DNA of 64,000 bases from Nitrospirota bacterium (GTDB taxonomy: Bacteria; Nitrospirota; UBA9217), in assembly GCA_963754875.1 (NCBI GenBank), contig CAVWHO010000020.1, positions 175,374 through 239,373 on the forward strand, given 5' to 3'. Shown here piece after piece: positions 37,948-58,798 of the stretch. The notes beneath the pieces are model-generated. The model saw only the letters and a program-made list of their open reading frames with translations, made no database searches and was not told the DNA's origin. The position numbers were made by a program, and so were the translations under genes. Numbering within the stretch: the first letter of the stretch is position 1; the number at the start of each line of letters is the position of its first letter.

Positions 37948-38479
37948 GCGGTCTTCTTGTATGACTCTCCAAAATATGATGCGTTCAAATAACGTCATGA
38001 TACAAACGAACCCAGTTCTGGATAAATTCCATGCTTCCATTTCAGTATCTCCTGGCGTGAACGAATCAGGGGAAAACTGTGACAGAATGCCAAGTGGGGA
38101 TGGGCCTCGACAATAAGCGCAATCCCCGATACCTGCGTCAGGGAAGAGGTCTTGAAAAACATCTCCAAAAGATAGCAGCCCGGGATTCGGATCGCGCGGT
38201 TGGGTTCTTTTACCTGGAACTCTGTACTCTGAACGCTGTACTCTGTACTGCAGTAAGCTCCTACCCCGAAAATACCCCATTTTTCCCCTTTATCTCCTTT
38301 CGAAAATTCATTATACTTTACACAATCTTTCCAGCAGCACGTTCTAGCCTTTTTTACCCTGCATGCAGTATCAATGCAGAGATGATAGCAGCTCATTTCT
38401 GCTCGTAACTGAAAAACCAAGTCTCGCCGTTATTGCGTTAACAACACAACCGACAGCAGCCAAACAGGAGAGATATATC

Positions 38480-41400
38480 ATGAATGTCAAAACAGTCTTG
38501 GGAGTGATTCTGGGATTTTGCATCACCCTGGGGCAGGCAGGCGCGGAAGAAGCGTCAATCGATATGTTCAGCCCTCAGGGAGAAGTGAAGAACGTACGCC
38601 AAGTGACAGCCCGATTCACTGAACAGATGGTACCCTTCGGAGAGCCACGGCTTACGGAGCCTTTTGACATCACCTGCCCGGGAAAGGGGCAAGGCAGGTG
38701 GGTTGACGGCAGAAACTGGGCGTACGACTTCGATCGCGATCTTCCCGCAGGGGTCGTCTGTGAATTCACCATCAAACCTGATCTCAAAACACTTGCCGGC
38801 AAAAAGATCGGCGGGCAGCAGAGGTTTACTTTTACCACGGGAGGGCCGGCAGTGAAGCGATCCAACCCGGCCGAAGGATGGCAAATTGACGAGGAACAGG
38901 CGTTCGTGCTGGCACTCGATGCAGAAGCGAAAGAAGAATCAATGCTCCAGAACGCTTACTGCTCCGTGGACGGGATCGCGGAGAGGATCGGGATCAAAAT
39001 CCTGAAGGGCGACGACCGTGAAGAAATACTCAAGAACGAGGGGCGGCATTTCAGCTTCGGAATTTCCCGCGAAGAAGCAAAGGGCTTTCCGCTTGTGGTC
39101 GTTCAATGCAAGCAGCGTTTCCCCAGCAACGCAACGATGCGACTTGTCTGGGGCAAGGGCATCGAATCCCTGAACGGCGTGAAAACGTCGGCTGATCAGG
39201 TGCTGTCCTACAAGGTCCGCGAGCCGTTCAGGGCAACCTTCAGCTGTGACCGCGAGAATGAAAAGGCCGACTGCATTCCTATTCTGCCTTTTCAAATATA
39301 TTTTACGAGCGCGGTCTCCGGTGAATACGCAGAAAAGATCGTCATGCGGGGCCCGAACAATACCATCTTCAAACCTGTGCAGTCCAGGTCTGGAGAGGAG
39401 GGCGAGGGCACTGCAAAAAAGCCGGATTTCGTGAACCGCCTTGTGTTTGCTGCGCCGCTGCCGCCTCTTGCCTCGTTCACCATCGAGTTCCCGAAGGATC
39501 TTAAGGATGATGCGGGTAGGTCTCTGTCGAACGCGGACAAGTTCCCGCTTACGGTGAAGACAGCGGACTATCCGCCGCTTGCCAAATTTGCTGCGGACTT
39601 CGGCATTGTCGAACGGGCAGATCCGTTCCTTCCGGTGACCCTGCGTAACATCGAGGCCGAAGTTAAGGCGCATGTGTTCGATGCACGAGATGCCAAGAAC
39701 ATCGCTGAGAAAGCTGCAGATGGCGTCTCCGGCACTATCAAGAATTTGATTTCCGGCCAAGTCACGGGCAAGGTCAGGACCTTCGCTGCTGATACAGACA
39801 TCATGATCTGGCTGGACCGTGTGGAAGGCAAGTGGGAACGACCTGGACAAACCCTGTTTCCTGGTACCGAGGCGGAAACCAAGGCAACGGAGCTGACTCT
39901 GCCCAAACCCAATGGGCCCAAGGCATTCGAAGTGATCGGCATCCCGCTCAAACAACCGGGGTTCTACGTTGTCGAATTGGAGAGCCGTATCCTCGGTGAA
40001 TCGCTGTTAGCAGAACCAAGACCCTACTATGCTTCCGCGGCCGCGCTGGTGACGAACCTTTCAGCGCATTTTAAACGCGGCCGTGAATCGTCCCTGGTCT
40101 GGGTCACGACGCTCGATAAAGCGGAGCCGGTGAAGGACGCCCAGGTCACTATCCGTGACTGCGGGGGCACGGTCCATTGGGAAGGAAAGACCGATGCATC
40201 CGGCGTCGCGTACGTGAATAAGGAACTGCCGCAGGAGAAAAGCTGCAGGAACTCCCGGACGTGGGGGTACTACATTTTTGCTCGAACGTCCGATGACATG
40301 ACCTTTGTGCGTTCTGATTGGAACAAGGGCATCGAATCCTGGCGTTTCAATCTGCCGGAGGCGTCTTACGAGGGGCCGGTGATCGCCCACACAATCCTCG
40401 ACCGCAGCCTCTTGCGCGCGGGCGAAACAATCTCCATGAAGCATCTCATCCGAAAACACACGACCTCGGGCTTCTCACAGGTGAAGGATTTGCCCAATGC
40501 CGTCGTGATCCAGCACCAGGGCAGCGATCAACGATACGAGTTTCCCCTGGCATGGGACCAGAGCGGCATCGCCGAGACGACCTGGCAGATCCCGAAAGAC
40601 GCAAAGCTCGGGACTTACACCATTACTCTGCTTAAGAAGGCGAGTGCTAAGACGAAGCAGAGGACATCAGTGGGAGGTTATGAAGAGGGCGACGAGGAGT
40701 ATTTCAGCGCCGATGGCTGGCAATCCGGCACCTTCCGGGTGGAGGAATTCCGGGTGCCGCTCATGAAAGGGATCATCCAGCCGCCCAAAGAGCCGCTCGT
40801 GAATGCGCGTGAGGCAACGGTTGATCTCTTCGTAAAGTATTTGGCCGGAGGAGGTGCCTCCAATGCTTCGGTCAAGTTCAGGACACTGACTTCACCGAAA
40901 CAGGTGAGCTTCGACCAGTATGAGGATTTTCTGTTTGCCAACGGAAAGGTCAAGGAAGGGCTCACCAGCCGCGAGCAAGAACGGAATTATGAGGAAGAAT
41001 ATGAGGGGGGTGAAGGCGAAGCTGAGGAGGTGTCGCCCCGCACAAGAAGGATTGCGGTCCTTAAGGAGGCAAGGACCAGAGAACTTATGTTGGATATGAC
41101 CGGCGCTGTAAGAACGACGATCATTGATCTGCCGAAGGCTGCGGTTCCGCAGGACATCCAGGCTGAGATGGAGTTCAGGGACCCGAACGGAGAGGTGCAG
41201 ACCGTGTCTTCACGCATTCCTCTCTGGCCCTCGGCCATTCTCGTGGGCATCAAACCCGACTCCTGGGTCGCATCGAAAGAGTCCTTCAAATTCCATGTTC
41301 TTGTCGTTGACCTGGCAGGCAAGCCGCTGTCGAACCGCCCGGTAACAGCCGACCTCTTCGAACGAAAGACCTATTCTCATCGCAAGAGGCTGATCGGAGG

Positions 41401-44279
41401 CTTCTATGCCTATGAGCATACAACCGAAACAAAAAAGGTAACGCAGGTCTGTGAAGGGAAGACTGATTCCAAAGGTCTTCTTATCTGCGAGTCGAAGTCT
41501 CCCGTGTCCGGGAACGTGATCATCCAGGCGCGGGCAACAGATGATGCCGGCAACGAATCAATCAGCCACCGGGACATCTGGATAGCGGACAAGGGCGAGT
41601 GGTGGTTCGATGTGTCCGACAACGACCGCATCGACCTGCTGCCGGAGCAGAGACACTATGAACCGGGCGAGACAGCGCGATTCCAGGTCCGGATGCCATT
41701 CCGCGAGGCAACGGCCTTGGTGACCGTGGAACGAGAGGGAGTCATGGAGACCTTTGTCAGACACCTTTCGGGAAAGATGCCCGTAGTAGAAGTTCCTGTC
41801 AAAGGAAACTATGCACCGAATGTATTCGTTTCCGTACTAGTCGTGCGCGGACGGGTCGGAGACATAAAACCTACGGCATTGGTGGATCTGGGAAGACCTG
41901 CATACAAACTCGGCATCGCCGAGATCAACGTGGGCTGGCGCGCGCATGAGCTCAGGGTTTTCTTAACCCCGGAAAAGCAGGTCTACCGCATTCGCGACAA
42001 AGCAAAGGTCTTCATAAAAGTCCGTCAGAGGGACAGAAATAATCCCTGGCCCCCGAAAAGCACGGAACTGGCAATTGCTGTCGTGGATGAGGGACTTCTG
42101 GAACTCATGCCGAACAAAAGCTGGAAGCTTCTCGATGCCATGATGGGACGCCGGGGCTATGAGGTGCATACGTCCACTGCCCAGATGCAGGTCGTGGGCA
42201 AGCGGCATTACGGGCTCAAGGCATTCCCGCCGGGCGGCGGAGGCGGCAGGACGGTAACGCGCGAAATGTTCGACACGCTGCTTTTATGGAAAGGCAGGGT
42301 CAAGCTGAACGAGAACGGAGAGGCAACTGTCGATATTCCTCTGAACGACGCACTCACCAGTTTCAGGATCGCTGCGGTCGCGAACGCCGAATCAGGACTC
42401 TTCGGCAGCGGCGAAACCTCGATCCGCACGACCCAGGACCTGATGCTCCTTTCCGGTCTGCCGCCGGTCCTCCGTGAAGGGGATAAATATAAAGCAGGGT
42501 TTACGGTCCGGAATGCCTCGGACCACAAGATGGATGTCGACATCACAGCATCGGTAAGCGGCGCATCGATCAAGCCTGAATTGAAAACAGAAAGCCTCGG
42601 CCCCGGCGAGGCTCGGGAGATTTTCTGGGACGCAACAGCGCCGCTCAATATCGACTCGGTCCTCTGGGAAGTTTCTGCGACAGAGAAGAATGGCGGAGCA
42701 GCAGACAGGCTCAAGATCAAGCAGAAGATCGTCGAAGCAGTACAGGCTCGCGTGTTCCAGGCAACTATCACTCAGGTGGACAAGGTCCATACGCTCACAA
42801 TCGAAAAGCCGAAAGACGCGATGCCGGGCAAGGGTGGCGTGAACGTCTCGTTTAGGAAGAAGTTGTCGAACGGCCTTGGCGGTGTAACGTGGTACATGAA
42901 GAACTATCCTTACACGTGCATGGAGCAGAAGACTTCCCGTGCGATTGCTCTCCGGGATGAAGCGCTCTGGAAAGCGGTGATAGCGGAACTACCAGCGCAT
43001 CTCGACAGTGACGGCCTGGTCAAGTACTTCCCGACCTGTCTTGTGGGGAGCGATACCCTTACCGCATATATGCTATCGATTTCAAACGAGGCAGGCTGGG
43101 CAATACCCGACGATCTCCAGAATAAAATGATTGAAGGCCTGCGCGGGTTCATCGAGGGAAAGGTCATCCGCTGGTCTGCGCTTCCCACTGCCGATGTCTC
43201 GATCAGGAAGATGGCGGCGCTTGAGGCCCTTTCCCGCTATAACAAAGCAGAGTCGGGTCTCCTGAGCTCGATCATGCTCGAACCGAACCTGTGGCCGACG
43301 TCAGCGGTGATCGACTGGCTGAATGTGCTCGTGCGCGTGCCGGACATGCCGGACCGCGAAAAGCGCATCAACGAGACTGAGCAGATCATCCGCTCGCGCC
43401 TCAACTTCCAGGGGACCACGATGGGCTTCTCAACGGAGAAGACCGACTACTTCTGGTGGCTCATGGTATCGACAGACGTGAATGCAGTCCGCACCGTGCT
43501 CACCTTCCTCGACAGGGACCAGTGGAAGGACGACATTCCGCGGCTTGTGCGCGGCGCCATCAACAGGCAGTACCACGGCGCGTGGGGCACGACCACTGCA
43601 AATGCCTGGGGCGTTCTGGCCATGGAAAAATTCTCGAGGAAATTCGAGAATGTTCCGGTTACGGGCAAAACATCTGCCAAAATTGGGGACAAAGCAAAAA
43701 GCGTTGACTGGCAGGCTGCCGCAGAAGGAGCGGCATTGATGTTCAACTGGCCGGCCAAAGAGACCGATCTCACGGTAAACCACCAGGGCACGGGCAAGCC
43801 CTGGGCCACGATCCAGAGTATCGCAGCGATCCCGCTTGAAGGAGCCGTTCTCGAGCGGGTATACGATCAAGAAGACAGTGACGCCCGTAGAGCAGAAACA
43901 GCAGGGTGTCTGGTCGCGCGGCGACGTAGCGCGCGTCAAGCTTGAGCTCGATTCCCAGGCGGACATGACCTGGGTAGTGGTGAACGACCCGATTCCTGCG
44001 GGATCGACGATCCTCGGAAGCGGTCTGGGCGGAGATTCAAAAATGCTCACGAGCAATGAACAGAAAGCCGGTTGGGCCTGGCCGGTCTTTACGGAACGCA
44101 CTTTCACGGCATACCGCGCCTATTATGAATATGTCGCAAAAGGCAAGTGGTCACTGGAATACACCGTGCGTTTGAACACGAGCGGCGCCTTCCAACTTCC
44201 CGAGACCCGCGTGGAGGCGCTCTATGCCCCGGAAATGTTCGGGGAGATGCCGAATGCAGGAATGACGATCAATCCTTAA
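38480..44279 (+). CDS. bacterial alpha-2-macroglobulin family protein (~1930 aa) with an apparent +1 frame change near 43836..43845
   Basis: Signal peptide after an AGGAGA RBS. Thioester motif YTCMEQ (CxEQ). The protein continues as ...LSISNEAGW... typical of the A2M domains. The C-terminal domain continues in another frame (ORF 43836..44279, ...YTIKKTVTPVEQ...). Confidence 0.8.
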
Positions 44280-44404: not shown

Positions 44405-46492
44405 ATGAGATACACCTGGACCATAATAGTTTTGTTCCTGCTGGCCGGCCAATCCTTCGGGATGTCCTCGTTTGACGAAGTGAATGCCGCCTATCATTCG
44501 TCCGACGCGGTCCTTCTTGACCGTCACGGCGAGGTGATCCATGAACTGCGCGTTGATCCGAATTCCCGAAAGCTTCAGTGGACGAGGCTTGCTGATATTT
44601 CTCCGGCGCTCGTGAAGGCGGTTATCAGGTCCGAGGACAAGCGGTTCTACCTGCATCACGGCGTTGACTGGACAGCCTTGTCGTCTGCTGCAGTAGGGAG
44701 CATATTCTCGGGCAGGCCGCGTGGCGCGAGCACGATCACGATGCAGCTTGCTTCACTCATTGACGCGAAGGTGAAATCGAGGAGAGGCCGGCGCACCATC
44801 GGTGAGAAGTGGGAACAGATAAAGGCTGCTCAATCGATCGAAACTACCTGGACAAAAGACCAGGTGCTCGAAGCCTATCTGAACCTCGTGAGCTTTCGGG
44901 GAGAACTGCAGGGGATCGCGGCTGCGTCGCGCGGTATTTTCGACAAGGCACCGGCTGGATTGGATGATACTGAGTCGGCGATTCTTGCTGCGTTGATCCG
45001 GTCACCCAATGCTTCTCCTGAAAAAGTCGGAGAACGGGCCGAGCAGCTTGCCGCGTCCCTGGGGAACTCTCTCCCGGCAGGAAAGATCAGACAACTTGCA
45101 ATTGACCGGTTGTCCAAAGCATATTCTGTGCGAAAGAGCATTGACCTTGCGCCGCATGTCGCGAAGATGCTCTTGCGAAAAAGTGTCAGGACTGCAAAAA
45201 CGACGCTTGATGCCTCTATCCAGCGTTTCGCGGGGGAAGCTCTCAGCCAGGCAATCAGAGCCCTTGCTGAACAGAATGTGCAGGACGGCGCCGCCCTGGT
45301 CGTGGACAACAAAACCGGCGACGTTCTCGCCTATGTCGGCAATGTAGGCAGTGGTTCTTCGGCCGCCTATGTTGACGGCATTCAAGCGAGGAGGCAGGCA
45401 GGTTCTACGCTTAAACCGTTTCTCTACGGTCTCGCCATCGAGAAGAAGATTGTTACAGCAGCCTCGCTCATCGAGGATTCTCCGCTGGACTTGCAGACCG
45501 GGCGCGGCGTTTACCGGCCTGAGAACTACGACAAAAACTTTCGCGGCTTTGTTCCTGTCAGGACCGCTCTTGCCTCGTCCCTCAATATCCCGGCAGTAAA
45601 AACGCTGAATCTCGTGGGGGTGAGTGAATTCGCTTCAAAGCTTCGCCAGTTCGGATTCAGCGGGCTTAGGGATTCGGAATACTACGGCCCTTCTCTTGCG
45701 CTCGGAAGTGCTGATATCACGCTCCTTGAACTGGTGAACGCATACAGAACGCTTGCAAACGACGGGGTCTGGAGCAGGCTGCGGATGTCGCCCGGCGATA
45801 GCAGACATCTTCGCAGACGCGCTCTTTCCCCGGAGGCGGCCTTTATTATTTCCTCCATCCTCTCCGACCGCGAGGCAAGAAGCGCGACCTTCAGCCTCGA
45901 AAGCCCGCTCTCCACGCGCTTCTGGACTGCGGTAAAGACCGGTACGAGCAAGGACATGCGGGACAATTGGTGTGTGGGCTTTTCCGACCGCTACACCGTG
46001 GGCGTCTGGGTGGGGAACTTTTCAGGCGCAGCCATGTGGAACGTATCAGGGGTGAGCGGGGCAGCGCCGGTATGGCTCGAGATCATGAATTTTCTCCATC
46101 AGGACTCTCCGAGCCGCGCGCCTGCTGTTCCTGCCGGCGTTACATCACGGCTCGTCACGTTCGCTGATAAGGGATCGTCCGTGCGAAAACAAGAGTGGTT
46201 CATCAAAGGTACGGAACAGGACCGGGTCAGGACCGACGTCGCACTAGTGCAACCGAAGATCATCTATCCCGCACCGGATATGGTGATTGCTCTTGATCCG
46301 GACATCCCGCATGATGTGCAGAAAATCTTTTTCGAAGCATCATCAGATTCAACCATGCGATTCGTTCTGGACGACCGCCTCATCGGGTCAGCGCCTCTCG
46401 CATCGTGGCGGCCCGTACGAGGCATGCATAGAATTTCGCTTACAGGCGGGAATGGCGCTGTTATTGACCGGGTTACTTTTGAGGTGCGATGA
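44405..46492 (+). CDS. pbpC: penicillin-binding protein 1C (transglycosylase + transpeptidase)
   Basis: Glycosyltransferase-51 motifs (RSEDKRFYLHHGVD). Transpeptidase STLKP at SxxK. Confidence 0.85.
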   Translation: MRYTWTIIVLFLLAGQSFGMSSFDEVNAAYHSSDAVLLDRHGEVIHELRVDPNSRKLQWTRLADISPALVKAVIRSEDKRFYLHHGVDWTALSSAAVGSIFSGRPRGASTITMQLASLIDAKVKSRRGRRTIGEKWEQIKAAQSIETTWTKDQVLEAYLNLVSFRGELQGIAAASRGIFDKAPAGLDDTESAILAALIRSPNASPEKVGERAEQLAASLGNSLPAGKIRQLAIDRLSKAYSVRKSIDLAPHVAKMLLRKSVRTAKTTLDASIQRFAGEALSQAIRALAEQNVQDGAALVVDNKTGDVLAYVGNVGSGSSAAYVDGIQARRQAGSTLKPFLYGLAIEKKIVTAASLIEDSPLDLQTGRGVYRPENYDKNFRGFVPVRTALASSLNIPAVKTLNLVGVSEFASKLRQFGFSGLRDSEYYGPSLALGSADITLLELVNAYRTLANDGVWSRLRMSPGDSRHLRRRALSPEAAFIISSILSDREARSATFSLESPLSTRFWTAVKTGTSKDMRDNWCVGFSDRYTVGVWVGNFSGAAMWNVSGVSGAAPVWLEIMNFLHQDSPSRAPAVPAGVTSRLVTFADKGSSVRKQEWFIKGTEQDRVRTDVALVQPKIIYPAPDMVIALDPDIPHDVQKIFFEASSDSTMRFVLDDRLIGSAPLASWRPVRGMHRISLTGGNGAVIDRVTFEVR

Positions 46493-51889: not shown

Positions 51890-53260
51890 CTGAACCAGCG
51901 TTTTGTTCCATAATTAAGTTGAGTGATCTACCCCACGCCTGAAGGCGGGGGCTTCTCAGGTCAACGAAGGGCTTTAGTACGCCGATTCTCACTGAGCGTT
52001 ACTTTCGGGCGATCCGCCCGTAGTTAAATTTGTCCGAAAAGGAGAATGTTTTGAGCAGCATTGAAATCACGGTCAACGATTTCTCTGCAACCTTGACAAG
52101 TCCACTCTCGATCTTTGAGTGTAAGCCCGTCGTTGATCCAGCCGCACGTTGCATGCCGCTTAGACGATGGGAAAAACCTGTCGATTTGACCGAACATGGT
52201 TCCACTCCATTCGGATTTGTACGCAACCTGACGGATGAATTCAGACCAGCCAGCATCGCAAACGCTTTTTGCAATGCAGTGGTTCGCCGTCATGCCCTTC
52301 ACATTCAAGTCCTCGGCAAAGATAGCTTGGTTCTCGCTTACCAGCCGGGAACTCAATTTGTGAAGGAAATCTTTTCTTTGATTCGCAATTTTTTCATGAA
52401 GCAGCGCGACCTTGTGACGCGCTTTGTTCCGGTTCGCGCTGCCCTTTACCTTGCGGGAAAGACGGCACTGAAAGAACTTCAAGCGATCTTCGGACTTGCG
52501 GAGAAACTTTGGGGACTCAACCCGTTCACCATTGGAGGTTACGAGAAACGATTTGAGCCCCAGGTCGATGCCGATCTGATTACCAGACTTTTTCGGCTTT
52601 ATTTTCTTTTCGACTTCACAAAGAACGGAGGCAAAATACTTTCCGGTCGTTGTCTTCGAGATCGTAATGCTCTTCAATGCGCCTTCAATCTTGCGGTGAA
52701 GAACGGCCTTGATCGGAGCGAACTTCGGAATACTGATAGTCCCAGAGTCAGTATCGACGGAAAAATGTTGAGGCACCAGAAACGATTGTCTGTCATGCTT
52801 GCTCTTGAACTTCGGGAACTCCGATCGCTTGTTAAAAAAGTTGTTGTATGCAACATCAAGACGACGCAGGGACTGTTGAAGCGCCTGAGAATTTACAGCG
52901 TTCAGCCACACAAATTCAGGGCTCTTTTTGAGATCAGTCAGCATCTTCGCCGTGTCATTGTACGTCAATCCCTGTTTCTTCTTGCCCTTATTCGTAGCGT
53001 AGTAATCAATGCGCTCACGCAGAAATCGGTTGTAGACGAAACGGCAGGACCCGAAATGATGAGCGAGAAATTCGGACTGCTTCGCTGTCGGGTTAAGCCG
53101 AAAACTGTAAGCTTTATTGATGAGCATGATTTACAATATATCATGGTTTAATGTAAAAGGCAACTAAATTCTTAGCCCGCTTTGCGGGATGCGGCTTATA
53201 TCCCCATAGCTAAAGCAAGGGGTCTTACGCCGCGAGGTGATAAATAAGTATGAGATAGGC
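51890..53260 (-). mobile_element. IS605-family (IS1341-type, tnpB-only) element; boundaries approximate
   Basis: A TnpB gene with hairpins near both its 3' end (ccccacgcc-tgaa-ggcgggggc, cgggcg-atc-cgcccg) and its 5' flank (cccgc-tttg-cggg). Confidence 0.5.
52024..53127 (-). CDS. tnpB: TnpB (IS605 OrfB, RuvC-like RNA-guided nuclease family)
   Basis: MLINKAYSFRLNPT N-terminus; RuvC motifs IGIDLG, AIFAEDLN, DRDFNAAQNI; zinc finger CGWIND...CQGC. Confidence 0.85.
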   Translation of the reverse strand: MLINKAYSFRLNPTAKQSEFLAHHFGSCRFVYNRFLRERIDYYATNKGKKKQGLTYNDTAKMLTDLKKSPEFVWLNAVNSQALQQSLRRLDVAYNNFFNKRSEFPKFKSKHDRQSFLVPQHFSVDTDSGTISIPKFAPIKAVLHRKIEGALKSITISKTTTGKYFASVLCEVEKKIKPKKSGNQIGIDLGLKSFLVTSNGERVESPKFLRKSEDRLKFFQCRLSRKVKGSANRNKARHKVALLHEKIANQRKDFLHKLSSRLVSENQAIFAEDLNVKGMTANHCIAKSVCDAGWSEFIRQVAYKSEWSGTMFGQIDRFFPSSKRHATCGWINDGLTLKDREWTCQGCREIVDRDFNAAQNILLFGQI

Positions 53261-53846: not shown

Positions 53847-55053
53847 GTGTAGTGTCTCACAAACGACTGGTGTTATCAGCCTTTTTCTTGCGAGAGCGAG
53901 GTAATGTGCAGCCTGGCTGAATTTTCTCCAATGTTTGTTTGCAGCGTCCAAGTTTCTTAACGATCGATTCAACGGTTGCGGTCCATACAAACGGTTTTGG
54001 GTCTTTGTTCCAAGCAGCCAAATACTCTTCGATAGCGCTCTTGAGCGCGTCCACGCTGACAAAGACTCCGCGACGTATTCGTTTTCCCGTCAGTTCTCCG
54101 AACCAACGCTCAACAAGGTTCAACCAGCTTGAACTGGTCGGGACGAAGTGGGAAACAAAACGTGGATGCCGTGTTAACCATCTCTGGACTTTGGGGTGCT
54201 TATGCGTGCCATAGTTATCCATCACTATGTGCAGCTGCTTTTCGACCGGGAATTCAGCATCCAGTTGCTTTAAAAACTTGAGAAATTCCTGATGGCGATG
54301 CCGAGCATAACATTGACCGATCACTTTACCTTGCGCCAATTCGAGCGCAGCAAAAAGGGTTGTCGTGCCGTTACGCTTATAGTCATGAGTCATGGTACCG
54401 CAACGCCCTTTTTTTAAAGGAAGTCCCGGTTGTGTACGATCTAACGCTTGAATCTGGCTTTTCTCATCCACACACAGCACTAATGCTTTTTCTGGAGGAT
54501 TGAGATAGAGCCCGACGACATCGGTAAGCTTTTCCAAGAACCGTGGATCGCGTGACAACTTAAATCCCGTGGTTCTGTGCGGCTGAATATGATGACTTTG
54601 CCAGATCCTATTGATCGTTGCTTTGCTCACGCCCTGCTGTTCAGCCATCGTTCGGCAACTCCAATGGGTGGCTCCAGCAGGCTTCGTTTGCAGTGTGGCA
54701 TTAATTATTTTATTAATTTTGGTTGCCGTTAACTCTGGTTTACGTCCGCGACCTGCCGCAACTTCCCAAAGGCAGTCCGGACCTTCACTACAGAACCGCT
54801 GCCTCCATAATGCAGCCGTTTTATAATTGATTTGCATTTGCTTTGCGATGGCCTTGTCTTGTTGGCCATTCGCAGCGGCTAGAATAATTCGACACCGTTG
54901 AGCAACTTGTTGCGGGGTGCGATGAGCCCGCACCCATTGCTCTAGTTCTTGTCGATCAGACTCAGTAAGGTTTATGGTTAAAGCGTGTCGTGCCATGAAC
55001 AGCATCCTATCACAAATCATGACATAACACCAGTTAATTGAGAGACACTACAC
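53847..55053 (-). mobile_element. IS630-family insertion sequence, intact copy 3 (identical to copy 2, TA-flanked)
   Basis: Same ends and TA duplication. The encoded 387-aa protein is identical to copy 2. Confidence 0.9.
53857..55020 (-). CDS. IS630-family DDE transposase (387 aa)
   Basis: Identical translation to the ORF at 28411..29574. Confidence 0.9.
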   Translation of the reverse strand: MICDRMLFMARHALTINLTESDRQELEQWVRAHRTPQQVAQRCRIILAAANGQQDKAIAKQMQINYKTAALWRQRFCSEGPDCLWEVAAGRGRKPELTATKINKIINATLQTKPAGATHWSCRTMAEQQGVSKATINRIWQSHHIQPHRTTGFKLSRDPRFLEKLTDVVGLYLNPPEKALVLCVDEKSQIQALDRTQPGLPLKKGRCGTMTHDYKRNGTTTLFAALELAQGKVIGQCYARHRHQEFLKFLKQLDAEFPVEKQLHIVMDNYGTHKHPKVQRWLTRHPRFVSHFVPTSSSWLNLVERWFGELTGKRIRRGVFVSVDALKSAIEEYLAAWNKDPKPFVWTATVESIVKKLGRCKQTLEKIQPGCTLPRSRKKKADNTSRL

Positions 55054-55090: not shown

Positions 55091-55137
55091 TTGACATTTA
55101 TGTAAAAGTATAATAATATTTGCATACTTTTATGTAA
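55091..55137 (+). promoter_or_regulatory. promoter (-35 TTGACA at 55091) overlapping a 14-bp-arm imperfect inverted repeat (ttatgtaaaagtat-N12-atacttttatgtaa); candidate ArsR-family operator
   Basis: Hexamer and inverted repeat read 40-80 nt upstream of the arsR ATG. Confidence 0.45.
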
Positions 55138-55172
55138 ATTGTTTTTCGTTTCGATATAAGGAGAAAAACAAA

Positions 55173-55514
55173 ATGCTCCCCATGGACAAGAGAATCGATC
55201 TCCTCAAAGTCATCGCCCACCCCATGCGCATCAAGATTCTCGAAGAGCTTACTCAAGGTGTGAAATGCGTAAGCGATTTCGAAGACTCCCTCGACATCAG
55301 CCAGCCGAATGTGTCACAGCACTTGACCCTCCTCCGAACGAACGGAATCATCGATTTCTTCGTTGACGGAAGGCTCAAGTGCTATTTCCTCAAAGAACCT
55401 CTCATCCCTGATCTCCTGGGACTTCTCAAAAAAAAGTATAAAGAAGACATACCCGCACCGGCCTGTTGTCCGGTGACGAAAAAAGGAACTTACCCTGGCG
55501 AAAGGAGAAGATAA
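55173..55514 (+). CDS. ArsR/SmtB-family transcriptional regulator with a C-terminal Cys pair
   Basis: HTH region CVSDFEDSLDISQPNVSQHLTLL. C-terminal PAPACCP. AAGGAGAAAAA RBS. Confidence 0.8.
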   Translation: MLPMDKRIDLLKVIAHPMRIKILEELTQGVKCVSDFEDSLDISQPNVSQHLTLLRTNGIIDFFVDGRLKCYFLKEPLIPDLLGLLKKKYKEDIPAPACCPVTKKGTYPGERRR

Positions 55515-55520
55515 GTCTGC

Positions 55521-55790
55521 ATGAAAAAGCACACAATTACTCTCTACGTGAACGACCCCATGGGCAAGCGCTGATTGTCCAATATGGATGCCGCTCGTGT
55601 GGCGGAGAAAGAGTTCGGCGCAGAAGTCGTCGTAATCAAGAAGACCTCGAAGGAGTATCAGGGGCAGCGAGACCCGCTTCCCTGTCCTTCCGTTGTCTTG
55701 AACGGGCGGCTCATCGCAAAGAAAGATACCATTACGTACCAAAGCTTGAAGACATCGATCATGTGCGACTGTGAAATAACACTCGTATAA
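55521..55790 (+). CDS. candidate thioredoxin-fold (redox-active-disulfide-protein-2-like) selenoprotein with an in-frame TGA at 55572..55574
   Basis: The ATG at 55521 has AAAGGAGAAG 9 nt upstream. Its 17 codons run in frame into the ORF 55575..55790, which has no RBS of its own. The translation MKKHTITLYVNDPMGKR-U-LSNMDAA...PCPSVVLNGRLIAKKD aligns with small Trx-like proteins, with U at the second position of the CxxC motif. Confidence 0.45.
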
Positions 55791-55801
55791 AGGAGGGTGC
55801 C

Positions 55802-56158
55802 ATGCCAAAAACCGTAACTCTATATTTATCAACATCGCCGTATTCCTACGAGAACACGCTGACGAGCGCCCGCATTGCCGAATCCGCTTTGAACAAGGGC
55901 CATACCGTCAACCTCATCGCATCGGCTGACGGCATCTACTGCTTTCTGACAAAGCAGAAGGCGAAAGGGATCCTGAATGCCGAAGAGGAATTCACCAGGC
56001 TCATACAAAAAGGCTTGAAGGTGTATCTCTGAGGCGGGTGCCTCAACTTTCGCCGTGCGGCGAAAGACGACTATCTTGCAGGTACAGAAGTAGGCTCGCT
56101 TAAAGGCCTGTTTGCAACCATGGGCGAGACGGACGTGTGGATTAATCTAGGTGCATAG
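55802..56158 (+). CDS. dsrE: DsrE/TusD-like sulfurtransferase with an in-frame TGA (probable selenocysteine) at 56030..56032
   Basis: AAGGAGGG RBS. The ORF through TGA and 42 further in-frame codons gives ...KVYL-U-GGCLNFRRAAKDDYL...GETDVWINLGA, which aligns with TusD ...NICVAAALRRGV...LTCDRVVQF with U at the active-site Cys78 position. A hairpin cuuucgcc-GUGC-ggcgaaag begins 14 nt after the UGA. The next gene starts 10 nt after the extended stop and has its own RBS. Confidence 0.7.
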
Positions 56159-56167
56159 GAGGAGCAT

Positions 56168-56521
56168 ATGTCAAATGTTGCGATGATCTTAAAGAGATCT
56201 CCCTACGGCGATATCAACGCGGCCGAGGCTGTACGCCATGCCCTTGGCGCTGTGTCCGGTGAACTTAGCGTTGATCTCATCCTGATCGACGGCGGGGTGC
56301 TGCTTGCAAAGAAGGGGCAGGACGACAAGGGTACGGGTTTCACAAATCTCGAAGGCACTCTCAAGGACTGCGTCGAAATGGGAGTCGCCGTCTATGCCGA
56401 CACTGCTTCGCTCAAAACGCAGGGTGTCCCGTCAAACGAGGTCGTCGAAAACGTCAAACTGGTCGGTGCCAAAGAGATCGCGGGACTGTTGAAGGAAGCA
56501 AAATCGACCATGATATTCTAG
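56168..56521 (+). CDS. dsrF: DsrF/TusC-like protein
   Basis: The DsrE/DsrF-family fold pattern (MILKRSPYGD...LILIDGGVLLAKKGQ). AGGAGG RBS. Confidence 0.7.
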   Translation: MSNVAMILKRSPYGDINAAEAVRHALGAVSGELSVDLILIDGGVLLAKKGQDDKGTGFTNLEGTLKDCVEMGVAVYADTASLKTQGVPSNEVVENVKLVGAKEIAGLLKEAKSTMIF

Positions 56522-56532
56522 AGGAGGCTGCT

Positions 56533-56814
56533 ATGTTCGTGATGATAAAGAGCGCGCCGGATACGACTGATGGAGCACTCGGATTGACCCTTGCGAAAGA
56601 AAGCGGGGCCGATCTTATCCTGCTGCAGAACGGCGTGTATTTTGCGAAAAAAGAACGGCTCGGCGATTTTGCCAGGACAGTGTATGTCCTGGATGACGAC
56701 AAGAGGCTCCGGGGTCTCAAGGATTCCGAAATGGATGGGCGTGCAAAAAACATCGACTACGACAAGCTGACCGACATCATTACGGGCGGCGACAAGGTGG
56801 TCGGGATGTTTTAA
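56533..56814 (+). CDS. dsrH: DsrH/TusB-like protein
   Basis: MFVMIKSAPD...LILLQNGVY pattern of TusB/DsrH. GAGGAGG RBS. Confidence 0.65.
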   Translation: MFVMIKSAPDTTDGALGLTLAKESGADLILLQNGVYFAKKERLGDFARTVYVLDDDKRLRGLKDSEMDGRAKNIDYDKLTDIITGGDKVVGMF

Positions 56815-56839: not shown

Positions 56840-58030
56840 ATGTCAAGGATCGTTGTGGTAGGGGGATCGTTCGGGGGATTGACAGCGGCCTTCGAGCTTA
56901 AACGACTGCTTGGGAAGAAAGCCGACGTGACCGTGGTGAGCGACGATGACCGGTTTGTGTTCCTGCCGTCGCTGCCGTGGCTCATCATGGGGTGGAGAAA
57001 GCCGGAAGATATTACCCTTAAGGTGAGCGAGATCCTGAAGCCCAAGGGGATCGAGTTCGTTCATGACGCGGCAAAGCAGATCGACGCCGATTCATCGAAG
57101 GTAACAACCTCAAAAGGAAAAGAGCTGCCCTATGACTTTCTCGTAATATCTACGGGACCGTATCTTTCCTTTGATGAGATTCCCGGGCTGGGACCTGATA
57201 AGGGCCATACCGACTGTACGTTTACACTTGATCATGCATTAAGAGCCAGAGAATCGTGGAAAAAGATCCTGGAGAACCCCGGTCCGATAGTCGTCGGTTC
57301 GTCGCAGATGGTGAGCTGTTTCGGCCCGTCCTACGAGCTGGCGTTTGAGATGGACACCGAGCTTCGCCGTCGAAAAATGCGCCACAAAGTACCCATCCTC
57401 TATCTCACGTCTGAACCCTATCTCGGCCACATGGGGGTCGGTGGTCTCGGCAAATCAAAGCGCTTCATGGAAGACGAATTTGCCGAGCGGGACATCAAAC
57501 CCGTCATCAGCCAAGCCATTGAAGAGGTAACGCCCGGAGAAATCAAACTCAAGGACGGCACAAAGCTACCCTTCAAACTTGCCATGATCGCGCCGCCGTT
57601 CAAAGGCGTGCCTGCCGTCATGCCGTTGGGAAATCCCCGCGGGTTCATCCCGGTTGACAAGAACTATCGTCATACGAAATTTAAAAATATTTTTGCCATC
57701 GGTGTTACCATGGCCATCGCACCGCCGGAGGCGACGCCGGTGCCGACGGGCGTTCCCAAGACCGGATTTATGACGGTGAAGATGGCGAAGATTGCCGCGG
57801 CAACTATCGCTGCCGGCATCACCGGGAAGACCCCGCCTCCTCCGTCGGAAATCGGCGTGGTTTGTCTCATGGACATGGGAAACACAGCCGCATACATGAA
57901 GGCCTATCCCGTGCTTCCGCCGCGCCAGAGTTCCTATACGAGGAAGACCATCTGGGCGAAGTGGATGAAGGTCCGGTTCGAGAAATACTTCCTCTGGAAG
58001 ATGAAGAGGGGGCTCAGCAATCTGCCATGA
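56840..58030 (+). CDS. sqr: sulfide:quinone oxidoreductase-like FAD-dependent pyridine nucleotide-disulfide oxidoreductase
   Basis: VVVGGSFGGLTAA Rossmann motif. The length and the Cys positions (VSCFGP, VVCLMDMG) fit SQR/FCSD-type flavoproteins. GGGGAGG RBS. Confidence 0.65.
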   Translation: MSRIVVVGGSFGGLTAAFELKRLLGKKADVTVVSDDDRFVFLPSLPWLIMGWRKPEDITLKVSEILKPKGIEFVHDAAKQIDADSSKVTTSKGKELPYDFLVISTGPYLSFDEIPGLGPDKGHTDCTFTLDHALRARESWKKILENPGPIVVGSSQMVSCFGPSYELAFEMDTELRRRKMRHKVPILYLTSEPYLGHMGVGGLGKSKRFMEDEFAERDIKPVISQAIEEVTPGEIKLKDGTKLPFKLAMIAPPFKGVPAVMPLGNPRGFIPVDKNYRHTKFKNIFAIGVTMAIAPPEATPVPTGVPKTGFMTVKMAKIAAATIAAGITGKTPPPPSEIGVVCLMDMGNTAAYMKAYPVLPPRQSSYTRKTIWAKWMKVRFEKYFLWKMKRGLSNLP

Positions 58031-58173
58031 AGAAAGAGATATTGAAGCTGCACGCTGATTTTTGCAAGATATTTTCCAATCCCACGAGGCTTGAGATACT
58101 CTGCCTGCTTAGAGAAGGCGAACTGACTGCCGGCGAGATCACTGAGAAGCTCGGCGTGTCACATGGCTATTAA
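58027..58173 (+). pseudogene. second arsR-family gene truncated after the first HTH helix by inserted DNA
   Basis: MKKEILKLHADFCKIFSNPTRLEILCLLREGELTAGEITEKLGVS then HGY-stop. Homologous to the 55173 protein up to the recognition helix. Confidence 0.6.
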
Positions 58174-58180
58174 ACTTACA

Positions 58181-58798
58181 TCATAGGTGCAGGGCCAGGC
58201 GGTTATGTCGCCGCGATACGTGCAGCGCAGGCTCTTTCGTTCTTTGAGCTTCGGTGTAGATTTCATGGCTGAAAAGGTCAATGACATGCAGCGCATAGAA
58301 CCTACGGTCATCTTTGATGTAGCGCGGCCCCACCAAGCCCATCTGGTGGATATTGTTGCACCCCAAGGCCTCGGTGAAGTAAGGGTATTCGACTCCTTTG
58401 GACGCATAGGCTGTTTTTTTAACGAGCCCTTTGCGTTTCAGCACTCGGTTTATCGTGCTGTCCGAAGGAAATGGTAGCCCCTGCTTCTTGAGCTCCCATT
58501 TGATGGCGGAAACGCCGATCTGGGCATAAGGCGCATCCACCAGTTGCTGCCTGGTCAAAAGGATGCGCTTTTTCGCTCCCTCGTCGATCTCCGAGGGCCT
58601 TGTTTTGGGAGCCCGAGATTGTTCTTTGAACCAGCCTGCTGCTCCGGTTCGATATCGTATCAGCCATTTGAAGAACCACTTCTTGGATCGGTTCAGGCTG
58701 GTATAAACATCTTTGGGTGATTCGCCTCTTTGGATGTGTCGTTTGATAGGGGTCTGTCTGAGTGCGCTCTCCTTTAGTAATCTGAATAAGGAGAGCAT
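58181..58798 (-). pseudogene. IS481-like transposase N-terminal fragment (HTH plus the start of an rve integrase core)
   Basis: Transposase-type HTH. GPRYIKDDRRFYALHVIDLFSHEIY begins the DDE core, but the ORF ends after 205 aa. Confidence 0.55.

What the first reader, a model, noticed from the sequence alone, without database searches (positions are those of the whole stretch)
55802..56158. DsrE-like gene with in-frame UGA at the active-site cysteine position and a downstream hairpin
The reading frame continues for 42 codons past the TGA at 56030 and ends 10 nt before the next gene's ATG. The extension ...VYL-U-GGCLNFRRAAKDDYLAGTEVGSLKGLFATMGETDVWINLGA aligns with the TusD/DsrE C-terminal half, placing U where the persulfide-accepting Cys sits. 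A stable hairpin (8-bp stem, GUGC apical loop) starts 14 nt after the UGA, the spacing expected for a bacterial SECIS. Without readthrough the protein would lack its catalytic residue and its C-terminal half.
Basis: partly seen in the sequence, partly recalled or inferred. Interest (0 to 1): 0.7.

Follow-up and report, generated by a model that had tools for sequence, protein, structure and literature searches.

The report
Selenocysteine DsrE-like sulfur-relay gene
The "stop" codon inside this small sulfur-carrier gene almost certainly encodes selenocysteine. The protein belongs to a selenoprotein family described in 2005, but every public database entry I could see for this Nitrospirota branch cuts it short at 72-76 residues, which may explain reports that these bacteria have dsrF and dsrH but no dsrE.

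Summary
ATG 55802, in-frame TGA 56030-56032, 41 further sense codons to TAG 56156-56158, and an 8-bp/GUGC hairpin at 56047-56066, 14 nt after the UGA.

- The TGA is invariant in 31/31 Nitrospirota orthologues, and the downstream frame evolves as coding sequence.
- Synonymous variation collapses exactly over the hairpin.
- Six more distant TGA-type examples (seven lineages counting the window's clade) keep TGA, UxxC and a 40-42-codon extension. Six of the seven have a clean hairpin 11-15 nt downstream.
- Full-length homologues carry Cys (CGGC, CGTC) at that position and lack the hairpin.
- The Sec column aligns with Cys78 of DsrE and TusD and with the first Cys of the YchN CxxC.

The gene sits in a conserved operon: ArsR, a second UGA gene (TsoC-like, 55521-55790), DsrE(Sec), DsrF-like, DsrH-like, a bona fide sulfide:quinone reductase, and a second ArsR.

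Inferred function: a Sec-based sulfane-sulfur acceptor coupled to SQR.

"DsrE-like, UxxC" selenoproteins have been known since 2005, so this is a new, consistently mis-annotated member of a known kind. Interest is moderate.

The parts
55091..55139 (+). Sigma-70-like promoter (TTGACA-17-TAATAT, 55091-55119) overlapped by a 16-nt imperfect inverted repeat (55096-55111 / 55124-55139). This is a candidate ArsR operator ahead of the operon.
   Evidence: These are consensus matches only; function is inferred.
55173..55514 (+). ArsR/SmtB-family regulator, 113 aa, with a C-terminal vicinal Cys pair (PAPACCPV).
   Evidence: Pfam HTH_5 E = 4.6e-11. NCBIfam HTH_metalloreg scores 68 bits, above its cut-off. 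BigR scores 50 bits and TsoR 31 bits, both below cut-off. The gene is conserved upstream of dsrE in nearly all related loci.
55521..55790 (+). Second candidate selenoprotein gene, TsoC-like, 89 codons. The motif is NDPMGKR-U, with the in-frame TGA at 55572-55574.
   Evidence: translation. NCBIfam NF045708 TsoC: E = 2.5e-8, 33.8 bits against a cut-off of 45. TGA at codon 18 in all 22 sequences listed, the window included (21 related loci).
55591..55605 (+). SECIS-like hairpin of the TsoC-like gene. In the window it reads CCGCU-CGUGU-GGCGG; in most relatives CCGCC-GGUCG-GGCGG. It starts 16 nt after the UGA.
   Evidence: One relative (L023) reads GCAGCC...GGCUGA, a C-G to A-U compensation.
55802..56158 (+). 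DsrE-like selenoprotein gene, 118 residues (76 + Sec + 41). An AGGAGG Shine-Dalgarno sequence lies at 55791-55796.
56030..56032 (+). UGA read as selenocysteine (residue 77). It is the first residue of the UGGC (UxxC) motif.
   Evidence: TGA in 31/31 orthologues and in all seven TGA-type lineages examined. Cys at this column in full-length homologues P0127, P0129, P0132, P0142, P0144, P0148, P0150 and P0156.
56047..56066 (+). SECIS-like hairpin: 8-bp stem CUUUCGCC/GGCGAAAG with apical loop GUGC, 14 nt after the UGA.
   Evidence: - Folding.
- Synonymous-site suppression falls exactly here.
- 94% of cells are paired in 31 distinct sequences.
- 4 of 8 pairs are changed on both sides relative to the L037-39 group, with pairing kept at 92% against at most 58% in slid controls.
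- It is not terminator-like, having no T run.
- It is absent from the Cys homologues.
56168..56521 (+). DsrF/TusC-like subunit, 117 aa, with Asp at the position equivalent to the active site.
   Evidence: Pfam DsrE E = 1.6e-16. TIGR03010 scores 40.6 bits against a cut-off of 94.
56533..56814 (+). DsrH/TusB-like subunit, 93 aa, containing no cysteine.
   Evidence: Pfam DsrH E = 3.6e-8. TIGR03011 scores 35.6 bits against a cut-off of 49.2.
56840..58030 (+). Sulfide:quinone oxidoreductase, 396 aa.
   Evidence: phmmer against Aquifex SQR 3hyv gives E = 1.4e-97, and against A. ferrooxidans SQR 1e-94. Both redox-Cys motifs align (VSCFGPSYE and VVCLMDMG).
58027..58173 (+). Second ArsR-family gene. 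Its start overlaps the sqr stop (ATGA). It is only 48 codons here against about 95 in relatives, and appears cut off next to a transposase-like gene at 58181-58798 (-).

Best explanation
**Decoding (about 0.93).** The UGA at 56030 is decoded as selenocysteine. The hairpin at 56047-66 acts as a bacterial SECIS that recruits SelB-GTP-Sec-tRNA(Sec) to the ribosome paused at the UGA. The product is a 118-residue DsrE-fold protein with Sec77 in a UGGC motif.

**Shown.**
- Conservation of the TGA, the downstream reading frame and the hairpin.
- Cys/Sec pairing with full-length homologues.
- Alignment of Sec77 to Cys78 of DsrE and TusD.
- Operon structure.

**Function (inferred, about 0.55).**
- The protein is the only redox-active subunit of a DsrEFH/TusBCD-like complex made with the two downstream gene products. 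The DsrF-like protein has Asp at the equivalent site and the DsrH-like protein has no Cys.
- Sec77 accepts sulfane sulfur as a Se-S-(S)H adduct. The sulfur would come from the product of the co-transcribed SQR, or from polysulfide.
- Cys80 can resolve the adduct to an intramolecular selenenyl-sulfide, or hand the sulfur on. The neighbouring TsoC-like selenoprotein is a possible redox partner.
- The operon is controlled by Cys-rich ArsR repressors. It would serve sulfide and sulfane-sulfur oxidation or detoxification, by analogy with the cst/yrk clusters of Firmicutes.
- Selenium gives faster chalcogen exchange than sulfur, both as nucleophile and as leaving group.
For: - **TGA and frame.** TGA is invariant in 31/31 orthologues. 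The 41 downstream codons are conserved with third-position-dominated change.
- **Hairpin under selection.** Synonymous diversity is lowest of all 108 windows exactly over the hairpin; no permutation in 100,000 was as low.
- **Wider family.** All seven TGA-type lineages examined keep TGA, UxxC and a 40-42-codon extension. Six have a clean hairpin 11-15 nt downstream, with different sequences; the seventh (L049) folds differently. Between two groups, 4 of 8 stem pairs are compensated.
- **Cys homologues.** They have CGGC, CGTC or CGSC at the site and lack the hairpin.
- **UGA is otherwise a stop here.** It ends 9 of 25 Pfam-supported genes in the window, and it is the terminal stop of this same gene in 13 of 31 orthologues.
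- **Active-site position.** The U column aligns to DsrE and TusD Cys78 and to the YchN CxxC.
- **Operon.** The extended ORF ends on the Shine-Dalgarno sequence of the next gene. The order ArsR, DsrE(U), DsrF, DsrH, SQR is conserved in over 30 loci. The SQR is genuine.
- **Phylum uses Sec.** Reported in PMC13188914 and PMC13510729.
- **Analogous clusters.** Repressor, DsrE, thioredoxin, TauE and SQR occur together in sulfide-detoxification clusters (PMC9918477).
Against: - No selA, selB, selC or selD and no tRNA gene lies in the 64-kb window, so Sec capacity of this genome is inferred from relatives and the literature.
- No Rfam family matches the hairpin.
- Within the close clade the stem is nearly invariant, so covariation rests on one deeper split. 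Eight stem positions are also constrained by the conserved peptide NFRRAAK.
- The functional part is context-based only. Relatives outside Nitrospirota pair the DsrE(U)FH core with other genes, such as an MMPL transporter, methyltransferases or a fatty-acid hydroxylase. The vicinal-Cys ArsR could equally sense a metalloid.
- The DsrE, DsrF and DsrH-like proteins all score below the NCBIfam equivalog cut-offs.
Confidence: 0.85

Rival explanations
1. The UGA is an ordinary stop. The cell makes a 76-residue DsrE fragment, and the downstream 123 nt are non-coding or a separate small ORF. This is how every public annotation I saw treats it.
For: All 120 best database homologues are annotated as proteins of 75-103 residues that cover only about 64% of the query (most are 76 aa). 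Some pipelines call a separate 38-aa gene after the TGA.
Against: - The downstream frame is conserved as protein in 33 loci and in six more distant TGA-type lineages.
- Substitutions concentrate at third codon positions.
- In the window's clade no start codon follows the TGA closely; the first Met is 30 codons later.
- Full-length Cys homologues are collinear with the read-through product.
- A 76-residue product would lack the active-site residue and the last third of the fold.
Confidence: 0.03
2. The gene is a pseudogene or carries a sequencing error: a nonsense mutation in a formerly Cys-encoding gene.
For: One relative (L035) has a frameshift just after the TGA.
Against: The same TGA occurs in 31/31 independent assemblies and in lineages only 33-50% identical. 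The frame is intact and under purifying selection. The hairpin is conserved.
Confidence: 0.01
3. The UGA is read through, but not as Sec. Possibilities are near-cognate Trp, Cys or Arg insertion, or a reassigned code, with the hairpin merely stimulating read-through.
For: No Sec machinery could be checked in this genome, and no direct chemistry is available.
Against: - UGA ends 9 of 25 genes in the window, and ends this same gene in 13 of 31 orthologues, so the code is not reassigned.
- The codon sits exactly where homologues have a redox Cys in CxxC. This is the signature of Sec/Cys exchange.
- The hairpin geometry fits bacterial SECIS elements: a small G-containing apical loop starting 22 nt after the UGA (PMC1088965).
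- The neighbouring gene shows the same arrangement, with a GGUCG loop.
Confidence: 0.04
4. Decoding as Sec is right, but the complex handles selenium or a metalloid (selenide, selenite, tellurite or arsenic species) rather than sulfur. It would work like the DsrE-like CGxC domain of YedF.
For: - A weak NCBIfam hit links the UGGC region to selenium-metabolism protein YedF (E = 0.01; PMC5322559).
- The ArsR regulator has a vicinal CC pair.
- The Chloroflexi Cys homologue sits with an ArsR-rhodanese fusion and SAM methyltransferases.
- An ArsB-like gene lies near one locus.
Against: - In Nitrospirota the invariant partner is a genuine SQR with both redox cysteines.
- Many relatives add TauE and a five-haem cytochrome.
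- The nearest solved relatives are sulfur-relay proteins.
Confidence: 0.2
5. The hairpin is not a SECIS. It would be a transcription attenuator or terminator, or an RNA-processing site inside the operon.
For: It is a stable GC-rich hairpin lying between what annotators call two genes.
Against: - It has no T run and is not picked up by the terminator scan.
- It lies inside conserved coding sequence.
- Its position tracks the UGA (11-15 nt) in six of the seven TGA-type lineages despite different sequences.
- It is absent where the codon is Cys.
Confidence: 0.03

Closest known systems
DsrE-like selenoprotein family (Pfam PF02635, UxxC motif). Zhang, Fomenko and Gladyshev 2005, PMC1088965; listed in reviews PMC9312934 and PMC13188914 with example WP_014524487.1; also reported in Desulfovibrio vulgaris, PMC1794560.
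   Same: Same Pfam domain, same UxxC position of Sec, and a small G-containing hairpin after the UGA.
   Different: I could not retrieve the reference sequences to compare them. An exhaustive search with the N-terminal 76 residues finds only 39 clusters (at 50% identity), and none of the members that carry names is a Desulfovibrio. This may therefore be a separate subfamily. Here the protein is encoded with DsrF- and DsrH-like partners and an SQR.
DsrEFH of Allochromatium vinosum (2hy5) and TusBCD of E. coli (2d1p)
   Same: Three adjacent genes of the E/D, F/C and H/B types. Sec77 aligns to the persulfide-carrying Cys78 and the following RR(G) motif. The F-type subunit has Asp at the equivalent site.
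   Different: - All three proteins score below the NCBIfam equivalog cut-offs.
- There is a second Cys (UxxC), not the single Cys of CVAA.
- The DsrH-like protein has no Cys.
- No dsrAB/dsrC or tusA/tusE/mnmA lies in the operon.
- It is linked instead to SQR and ArsR regulators.
[quoted passage not shown]
   Same: YchN is the best solved-structure sequence match (E = 1e-14). It has a CxxC exactly where this protein has UxxC. YedF has CGxC (PMC5322559; weak hit).
   Different: As far as I recall, YchN is a stand-alone protein without F/H partners. YedF is fused to a TusA-like domain and linked to selenium metabolism.
Sulfide-detoxification clusters of Firmicutes: S. aureus cst (cstR-cstA-cstB-sqr, tauE) and B. 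licheniformis yrk (PMC9918477)
   Same: The same logic applies: a thiol-based repressor, SQR, a DsrE-type sulfur carrier, a thioredoxin-like protein, and a TauE exporter (TauE is present in many relatives of this locus).
   Different: The regulator is ArsR-type, not CsoR-type. There is no persulfide dioxygenase, rhodanese or TusA in the operon. The carrier is a three-subunit DsrEFH-like set and contains Sec. This is an analogy, not homology of the whole cluster.
E. coli fdhF-type bacterial SECIS
   Same: A stem-loop shortly after the UGA with G (and U) at the start of a small apical loop. The loop is GUGC here and GGUCG in the neighbouring gene.
   Different: It has no bulged U, and no sequence similarity to any Rfam family. 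SelB binding is untested.
TsoC, the NEPxGxxU-motif selenoprotein (NCBIfam NF045708; Haft and Tolstoy 2025, cited in PMC13188914). This concerns the neighbouring gene.
   Same: An N[ED]PxGxxU motif near the N-terminus, similar length, and a full-length match to the model at E = 2.5e-8.
   Different: The score of 33.8 bits is below the 45-bit cut-off. There are no TsoA or TsoB genes, and the regulator is not TsoR (31 bits against a cut-off of 115).

Membership tests
Bacterial selenoprotein gene (Sec-UGA plus SECIS) | In-frame UGA conserved among orthologues | tested here: met
   TGA in 31/31 full-length Nitrospirota orthologues and in all seven TGA-type lineages examined.
Bacterial selenoprotein gene (Sec-UGA plus SECIS) | Protein-coding conservation downstream of the UGA | tested here: met
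   The 41 codons are conserved. Variable columns at codon positions 1/2/3 are 24/13/37.
Bacterial selenoprotein gene (Sec-UGA plus SECIS) | Homologues with Cys aligned to the UGA | tested here: met
   P0127, P0129 (CGGC), P0132 (CGTC), P0142, P0144, P0148, P0150, P0156 and an archaeal locus, L036.
Bacterial selenoprotein gene (Sec-UGA plus SECIS) | Stem-loop shortly after the UGA with a small apical loop containing G | tested here: met
   An 8-bp stem with GUGC loop, 14 nt after the UGA. Synonymous suppression falls on it. Equivalent hairpins occur in five of the six more distant lineages examined. Compensatory pairs are present. It is absent in Cys homologues. The numeric consensus (apical loop 16-37 nt from the UGA) is recalled from Zhang and Gladyshev 2005, not read here.
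Bacterial selenoprotein gene (Sec-UGA plus SECIS) | Match to a curated SECIS RNA family | tested here: inconclusive
   No Rfam match at gathering threshold or at E up to 10. Rfam covers few bacterial SECIS types.
Bacterial selenoprotein gene (Sec-UGA plus SECIS) | selA, selB, selC and selD in the same genome | not testable with these tools
   None lies in the 64-kb window and the rest of the genome is unavailable. Sec use in Nitrospirota is reported in PMC13188914 and PMC13510729.
Bacterial selenoprotein gene (Sec-UGA plus SECIS) | Selenium shown in the protein | not testable with these tools
   Needs 75Se labelling or mass spectrometry.
DsrE-like selenoprotein family (PF02635, UxxC) | DsrE/DsrF-like Pfam domain | tested here: met
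   PF02635, E = 2.9e-14, residues 5-114 against profile positions 3-114 of 116.
DsrE-like selenoprotein family (PF02635, UxxC) | Sec in a UxxC motif | tested here: met
   UGGC here; UTGC, UGSC and UGTC in other lineages.
DsrE-like selenoprotein family (PF02635, UxxC) | Sequence relatedness to the published members (WP_014524487.1, AACY01486889) | not tested
   These sequences could not be fetched with the tools. No Desulfovibrio protein appears among the named members of the 39 representative clusters.
DsrE/TusD of DsrEFH/TusBCD (TIGR03012 and partners) | Score above the NCBIfam equivalog cut-offs | tested here: not met
   TusD 15.4 bits against 89.25. TusC 40.6 against 94.15 and TusB 35.6 against 49.2.
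DsrE/TusD of DsrEFH/TusBCD (TIGR03012 and partners) | Nucleophile at the Cys78 position | tested here: met
   The U column aligns to the Cys of 2hy5_A and 2d1p_A. Here the residue is Sec.
DsrE/TusD of DsrEFH/TusBCD (TIGR03012 and partners) | Adjacent F/C-type and H/B-type genes | tested here: met
   56168-56521 and 56533-56814. The arrangement is conserved in relatives.
DsrE/TusD of DsrEFH/TusBCD (TIGR03012 and partners) | Conserved Cys in DsrH (Cys20 in A. vinosum; recalled from memory) | tested here: not met
   The DsrH-like protein has no cysteine.
DsrE/TusD of DsrEFH/TusBCD (TIGR03012 and partners) | Genomic link to dsrAB/dsrC or to tusA/tusE/mnmA | tested here: not met
   None is in the operon. 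The neighbours are ArsR, the TsoC-like gene and SQR. A NIR_SIR-TusA fusion gene lies 42 kb away.
TsoC (NF045708), for the neighbouring gene 55521-55790 | Score at or above the curated cut-off | tested here: not met
   33.8 bits against 45, E = 2.5e-8.
TsoC (NF045708), for the neighbouring gene 55521-55790 | NEPxGxxU motif with Sec | tested here: met
   NDPMGKR-U with TGA in all 22 sequences listed, the window included.
TsoC (NF045708), for the neighbouring gene 55521-55790 | Tso operon partners (TsoA, TsoB, TsoR) | tested here: not met
   The ArsR scores 30.6 bits against TsoR's cut-off of 115. No TsoA- or TsoB-like genes are in the operon.
Sulfide:quinone oxidoreductase, for the gene 56840-58030 | Homology to solved SQRs with both redox cysteines | tested here: met
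   3hyv E = 1.4e-97. VSCFGP and C(L/I)xD motifs align. It is not the Sec subtype NF049943 (108 bits against 525).

The most novel reading that the evidence does not exclude
In Nitrospirota (and at least Rokubacteria), the DsrE subunit of a DsrEFH-like complex is predominantly a selenoprotein. It is encoded beside a second selenoprotein and an SQR. Together they would form a selenium-dependent sulfane-sulfur relay that current annotation cannot see. This would account for the published oddity that most Thermodesulfovibrionia 'possess dsrFH, but no dsrE' (PMC11033732). It would also mean that using dsrEFH presence or absence to call oxidative versus reductive sulfur metabolism is biased in Sec-using lineages.
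Probability: 0.5. Interest if true: 0.55.

Novelty: new member of a known kind. Interest (0 to 1): 0.4.

Why it matters
**Annotation.** In the 5.8-billion-cluster protein collection, none of the 120 best homologues covers more than 64% of the query. They are labelled 'DsrE family protein' or 'hypothetical', and the clusters hold 272, 116, 10, 8, 5, 5 and 2 members. NCBIfam has no model for the family. Automated pipelines will therefore keep missing it.

**Ecology.** dsrEFH is widely used as a marker of sulfur oxidation. A 2024 survey of aquifer Nitrospirota reported dsrFH without dsrE in most Thermodesulfovibrionia (PMC11033732). A Sec-truncated dsrE immediately upstream of dsrFH is a simple explanation that can be tested.

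**Biochemistry.** A Sec at the persulfide-carrier position of a DsrE-fold protein, next to an SQR, is a tractable case for asking what selenium contributes to sulfane-sulfur transfer. It parallels the recently described Sec-dependent polysulfide reductase MccSep (PMC13510729).

**Limit.** None of this changes what kinds of system are known.

Tried and rejected
- **Rfam.** The whole window at gathering thresholds, and 55400-56300 at E up to 10, gave nothing relevant.
- **ARAGORN.** No tRNA or tRNA-Sec in the window.
- **Exhaustive search with the read-through protein.** I used the 76-residue N-terminal part instead.
- **Wrong-frame query.** My first tblastn for the TsoC-like gene used a start coordinate off by one (55522), so the query was out of frame. 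Its hits and the output are meaningless for that gene. One search corrected this; the start is 55521.
- **hhalign against TusD.** The result placed U on Cys78 but with only 5.6% probability. I replaced it with the profile search of PDB sequences.
- **Other TGA-interrupted ORFs.** A window-wide scan returned 99 candidates. Beyond the two genes reported, the flanking peptides of the rest did not look like coding sequence by eye; none was checked further.
- **Pfam on the TsoC-like protein.** No hit.
- **Haft and Tolstoy 2025.** The source paper for the Tso families is not held in the library.
- **First hairpin (56030-56045), which includes the UGA.** It is only partly conserved: one pair is broken in 16 of 31 sequences. 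I do not count it as part of the element.
- **Structure prediction.** Not run.
Full report
**1. What is in the sequence**

The reading frame that starts at ATG 55802 is preceded by AGGAGG at 55791-55796. It runs 76 codons to TGA 56030-56032, continues for 41 sense codons, and ends at TAG 56156-56158. The stop lies on the Shine-Dalgarno sequence of the next gene, whose ATG is at 56168, so the gap is 9 nt.

Fourteen nucleotides after the UGA lies a perfect 8-bp hairpin with a GUGC loop, CUUUCGCC-GUGC-GGCGAAAG, at 56047-56066. The 46 nt starting at the UGA fold much better than shuffles (z = -3.5).

The gap is 9 nt, not 10. The extension is one third of the protein, not one half.

**2. Is the UGA read as an amino acid?**

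A scan of one genome per species returned 36 loci, 35 of them from Nitrospirota-type MAGs.

- All 31 full-length orthologues have TGA at codon 77, followed by GGC[LMVQ]NFRRA... and a stop 41 codons later.
- After the TGA, variable columns fall 24/13/37 on codon positions 1/2/3. This is the same pattern as before the TGA (36/27/75), so the extension is under purifying selection as protein.
- UGA is a normal stop in this genome. It ends 9 of 25 Pfam-supported genes in the window. It is also the terminal stop of this same gene in 13 of 31 orthologues. A reassigned code is therefore excluded.
- The 120 best database homologues are 75-103 residues long (most are 76) and cover only about 64% of the query. 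Gene callers everywhere stop at this codon.

**3. The hairpin**

- Normalised synonymous-codon entropy averages 0.69 across the gene but 0.17 over codons 82-88. That is the lowest of all 108 seven-codon windows and coincides with the hairpin. None of 100,000 random codon sets was as low. For example, the two Arg codons are CGC-CGT in 31/31 sequences, whereas Arg codons elsewhere in the gene vary freely.
- Inside this clade the stem is almost invariant: 94% of cells are paired and there are no double changes.
- An exhaustive search with the N-terminal 76 residues found only 39 clusters at 50% identity. Several are again truncated at the same position.
- I fetched DNA for six more distant examples, giving seven TGA-type lineages with the window's clade. 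All have TGA, a UxxC motif (UGGC, UTGC, UGSC or UGTC) and a 40-42-codon extension with a conserved C-terminus.
- Six of the seven have a clean hairpin 11-15 nt after the UGA, with different sequences. Examples are AGCCGC-GGUCUU-GCGGCU, GCGAUUC-AGGG-GAAUCGC and UUCCGC-GGUCU-GCGGAA. The seventh (L049) folds into a different, longer structure.
- In a codon-aligned comparison of the window's type with the L037-39 type, 4 of 8 stem pairs are changed on both sides while 92% of cells stay paired. Controls with the partner slid by 1-3 columns give at most 58% paired and at most one such pair. This is essentially one evolutionary split, so it is supportive rather than decisive.
- Full-length homologues with Cys at the site do not have this hairpin.
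- The hairpin is followed by no T run and is not terminator-like.
- No Rfam family matches it.

**4. The protein**

With U replaced by C, the protein matches Pfam DsrE (PF02635) from end to end, E = 2.9e-14.

A profile of Sec- and Cys-type members finds three solved relatives: YchN (1jx7, E = 1e-14), A. vinosum DsrE (2hy5_A, 4e-12) and E. coli TusD (2d1p_A, 6e-8). The U column aligns to the first Cys of YchN's CKTC and to the Cys in 'VVCVAAAQRRG' and 'NICVAAALRRG'. That Cys is Cys78, known from the literature as the persulfide-carrying residue of DsrE and TusD (my knowledge, not read here).

The motif, however, is UxxC as in YchN and the CGxC of YedF (PMC5322559; weak hit). It is not the single Cys of DsrE/TusD.

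Full-length relatives carry CGGC (P0129), CGTC (P0132) and CGSC (P0136, P0142), among others. In this narrow family the Sec-type clusters are large (272, 116, 10, 8, 5, 5 and 2 members). The Cys-type clusters hold only one or two members each.

**5. Context**

The gene is the third in an operon.

- A promoter-like site with an overlapping 16-nt palindrome lies at 55091-55139.
- Next comes an ArsR-family regulator at 55173-55514.
- Next comes a small gene, 55521-55790, with its own in-frame TGA at 55572-55574. Its motif is NDPMGKR-U. It matches NCBIfam TsoC at E = 2.5e-8 but below the cut-off. All 22 sequences listed, the window included, keep the TGA and a hairpin, mostly CCGCC-GGUCG-GGCGG.
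- DsrE(Sec) follows at 55802-56158.
- A DsrF/TusC-like gene follows at 56168-56521, then a DsrH/TusB-like gene at 56533-56814.
- A 396-residue flavoprotein follows. It is a genuine sulfide:quinone reductase: E = 1.4e-97 to Aquifex SQR, with both redox-Cys motifs aligned.
- Last is a second ArsR gene. Here it is cut to 48 codons, next to a transposase-like gene.

The order ArsR, DsrE(U), DsrF, DsrH, SQR, ArsR is conserved in over 30 Nitrospirota loci. Many relatives also carry TauE and a five-haem cytochrome between the TsoC-like gene and dsrE. The window lacks these. In Rokubacteria the ArsR-DsrE(U)FH core is followed by an MMPL transporter. A Chloroflexi Cys-type locus has an ArsR-rhodanese fusion, methyltransferases and an FCSD/SQR-like gene.

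The DsrH-like protein has no Cys. The DsrF-like protein has Asp at the equivalent site. Sec77 and Cys80 (plus Cys47, which is specific to this clade) are therefore the only candidate redox residues of the presumed complex.

**6. Mechanism**

Decoding rests on direct sequence and comparative evidence. The model is SelB-dependent insertion of Sec at UGA 56030, directed by the hairpin at 56047-66. I put it at about 0.93.

The function is inferred from context, at about 0.55.
- SQR oxidises sulfide to sulfane sulfur.
- Sec77 of the DsrE(U)FH-like complex accepts the sulfur as a Se-S adduct.
- Cys80 resolves the adduct or passes it on.
- The TsoC-like selenoprotein may act as a redox partner.
- The ArsR proteins, which carry several conserved Cys, would de-repress the operon in response to reactive sulfur species.

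The same parts list occurs in characterised sulfide-detoxification clusters of Firmicutes: repressor, SQR, DsrE-type carrier, thioredoxin-like protein and TauE (PMC9918477).

The main functional rival is a role in selenium or metalloid handling. The YedF resemblance, the vicinal-Cys ArsR and the methyltransferases in a Cys-type locus point that way. I give it about 0.2.

**7. What is known, and novelty**

'DsrE-like protein, PF02635, UxxC' has been on the list of bacterial selenoprotein families since the Sargasso Sea study (PMC1088965). It is also reported in D. vulgaris (PMC1794560) and appears in recent reviews (PMC9312934, PMC13188914). The finding is therefore not a new kind of thing.

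Four points are not in the papers I could read.
- This branch is part of a three-gene DsrEFH-like set coupled to SQR.
- It sits beside a second selenoprotein.
- The Sec form is the dominant state of the family.
- Every database entry I saw is truncated, and NCBIfam has no model for it.

A 2024 survey states that most Thermodesulfovibrionia 'possess dsrFH, but no dsrE' (PMC11033732). The Sec-truncated dsrE directly upstream of dsrFH is a likely cause. That link is my inference and was not tested on their MAGs.

I could not compare directly with the published reference sequences, so whether this is the same subfamily remains open.

**8. Verdict**

This is a new, systematically mis-annotated member of a known selenoprotein family, with moderate practical significance for sulfur-cycle annotation. 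Interest: 0.4.

Noticed in passing
window 55521-55790 (+); TGA 55572-55574; hairpin 55591-55605: A second candidate selenoprotein gene lies directly upstream of the finding. It reads MKKHTITLYVNDPMGKR-U-LSNMD... and is TsoC-like (NF045708, 33.8 bits against a cut-off of 45). All 22 sequences listed, the window included, keep the TGA and a GGUCG-type hairpin. Gene callers report only the 71-residue tail, or nothing.
   Followed up: yes
L011 1979-2767 and 2824-3975 (similar in L004, L006, L008-L010, L013, L017 and others): In many relatives a TauE exporter and a five-haem cytochrome c (five CxxCH motifs) sit between the TsoC-like gene and dsrE(Sec). The window lacks both. The cytochrome contains 'AAHYLPTGTPDRH', which resembles the Sec-site peptide 'AGHSIPDGUPTPNR' of the polysulfide reductase MccSep (PMC13510729) but has Thr where MccSep has Sec. 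Homology to MccSep was not tested.
   Followed up: partly
window 58027-58173 (+) and 58181-58798 (-): The second ArsR gene of the operon starts on the sqr stop (ATGA) but is only 48 codons long, against about 95 in relatives. It abuts a transposase-like ORF (HTH_32) on the other strand. An insertion probably truncated the operon's 3' end.
   Followed up: partly
window 502-1293 (+), 2485-3597 (-), 52024-53127 (-), 53857-55020 (-): The window is rich in mobile elements: two DDE_3 (IS630-like) transposases, an IS91-type Y2 transposase and an IS605 OrfB/TnpB (Cas12f-like TNB domain). Two of them lie immediately upstream of the operon.
   Followed up: partly
window 13065-14261 (+): A 398-residue protein fuses a small nitrite/sulfite-reductase module (NIR_SIR with ferredoxin-like and 4Fe-4S domains) to a C-terminal TusA sulfur-carrier domain. 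It is another sulfur-trafficking gene in the window.
   Followed up: no
window 22330-23412 (+): A stand-alone TauE/SafE sulfite-exporter homologue lies elsewhere in the window. It might substitute for the TauE missing from this copy of the operon.
   Followed up: no
L035 4001-4346: One relative has an 8-nt shorter sequence just after the TGA, which shifts the frame. It is either a decaying copy or an assembly error. It is the only exception among the 34 Nitrospirota loci that span the TGA.
   Followed up: no
L045 3610-8523 (Chloroflexi, Cys-type homologue P0132): The Cys-type DsrEFH-like set is flanked by an ArsR-rhodanese fusion, two SAM-dependent methyltransferases and an FCSD/SQR-like flavoprotein. 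This hints at methylation of a chalcogen or metalloid species in that lineage.
   Followed up: no
window 38363-43945 (+): A 1860-residue bacterial alpha-2-macroglobulin homologue is followed by a penicillin-binding protein 1C-type gene (44405-46492). This is the known A2M-PbpC pairing and is unrelated to the finding.
   Followed up: no
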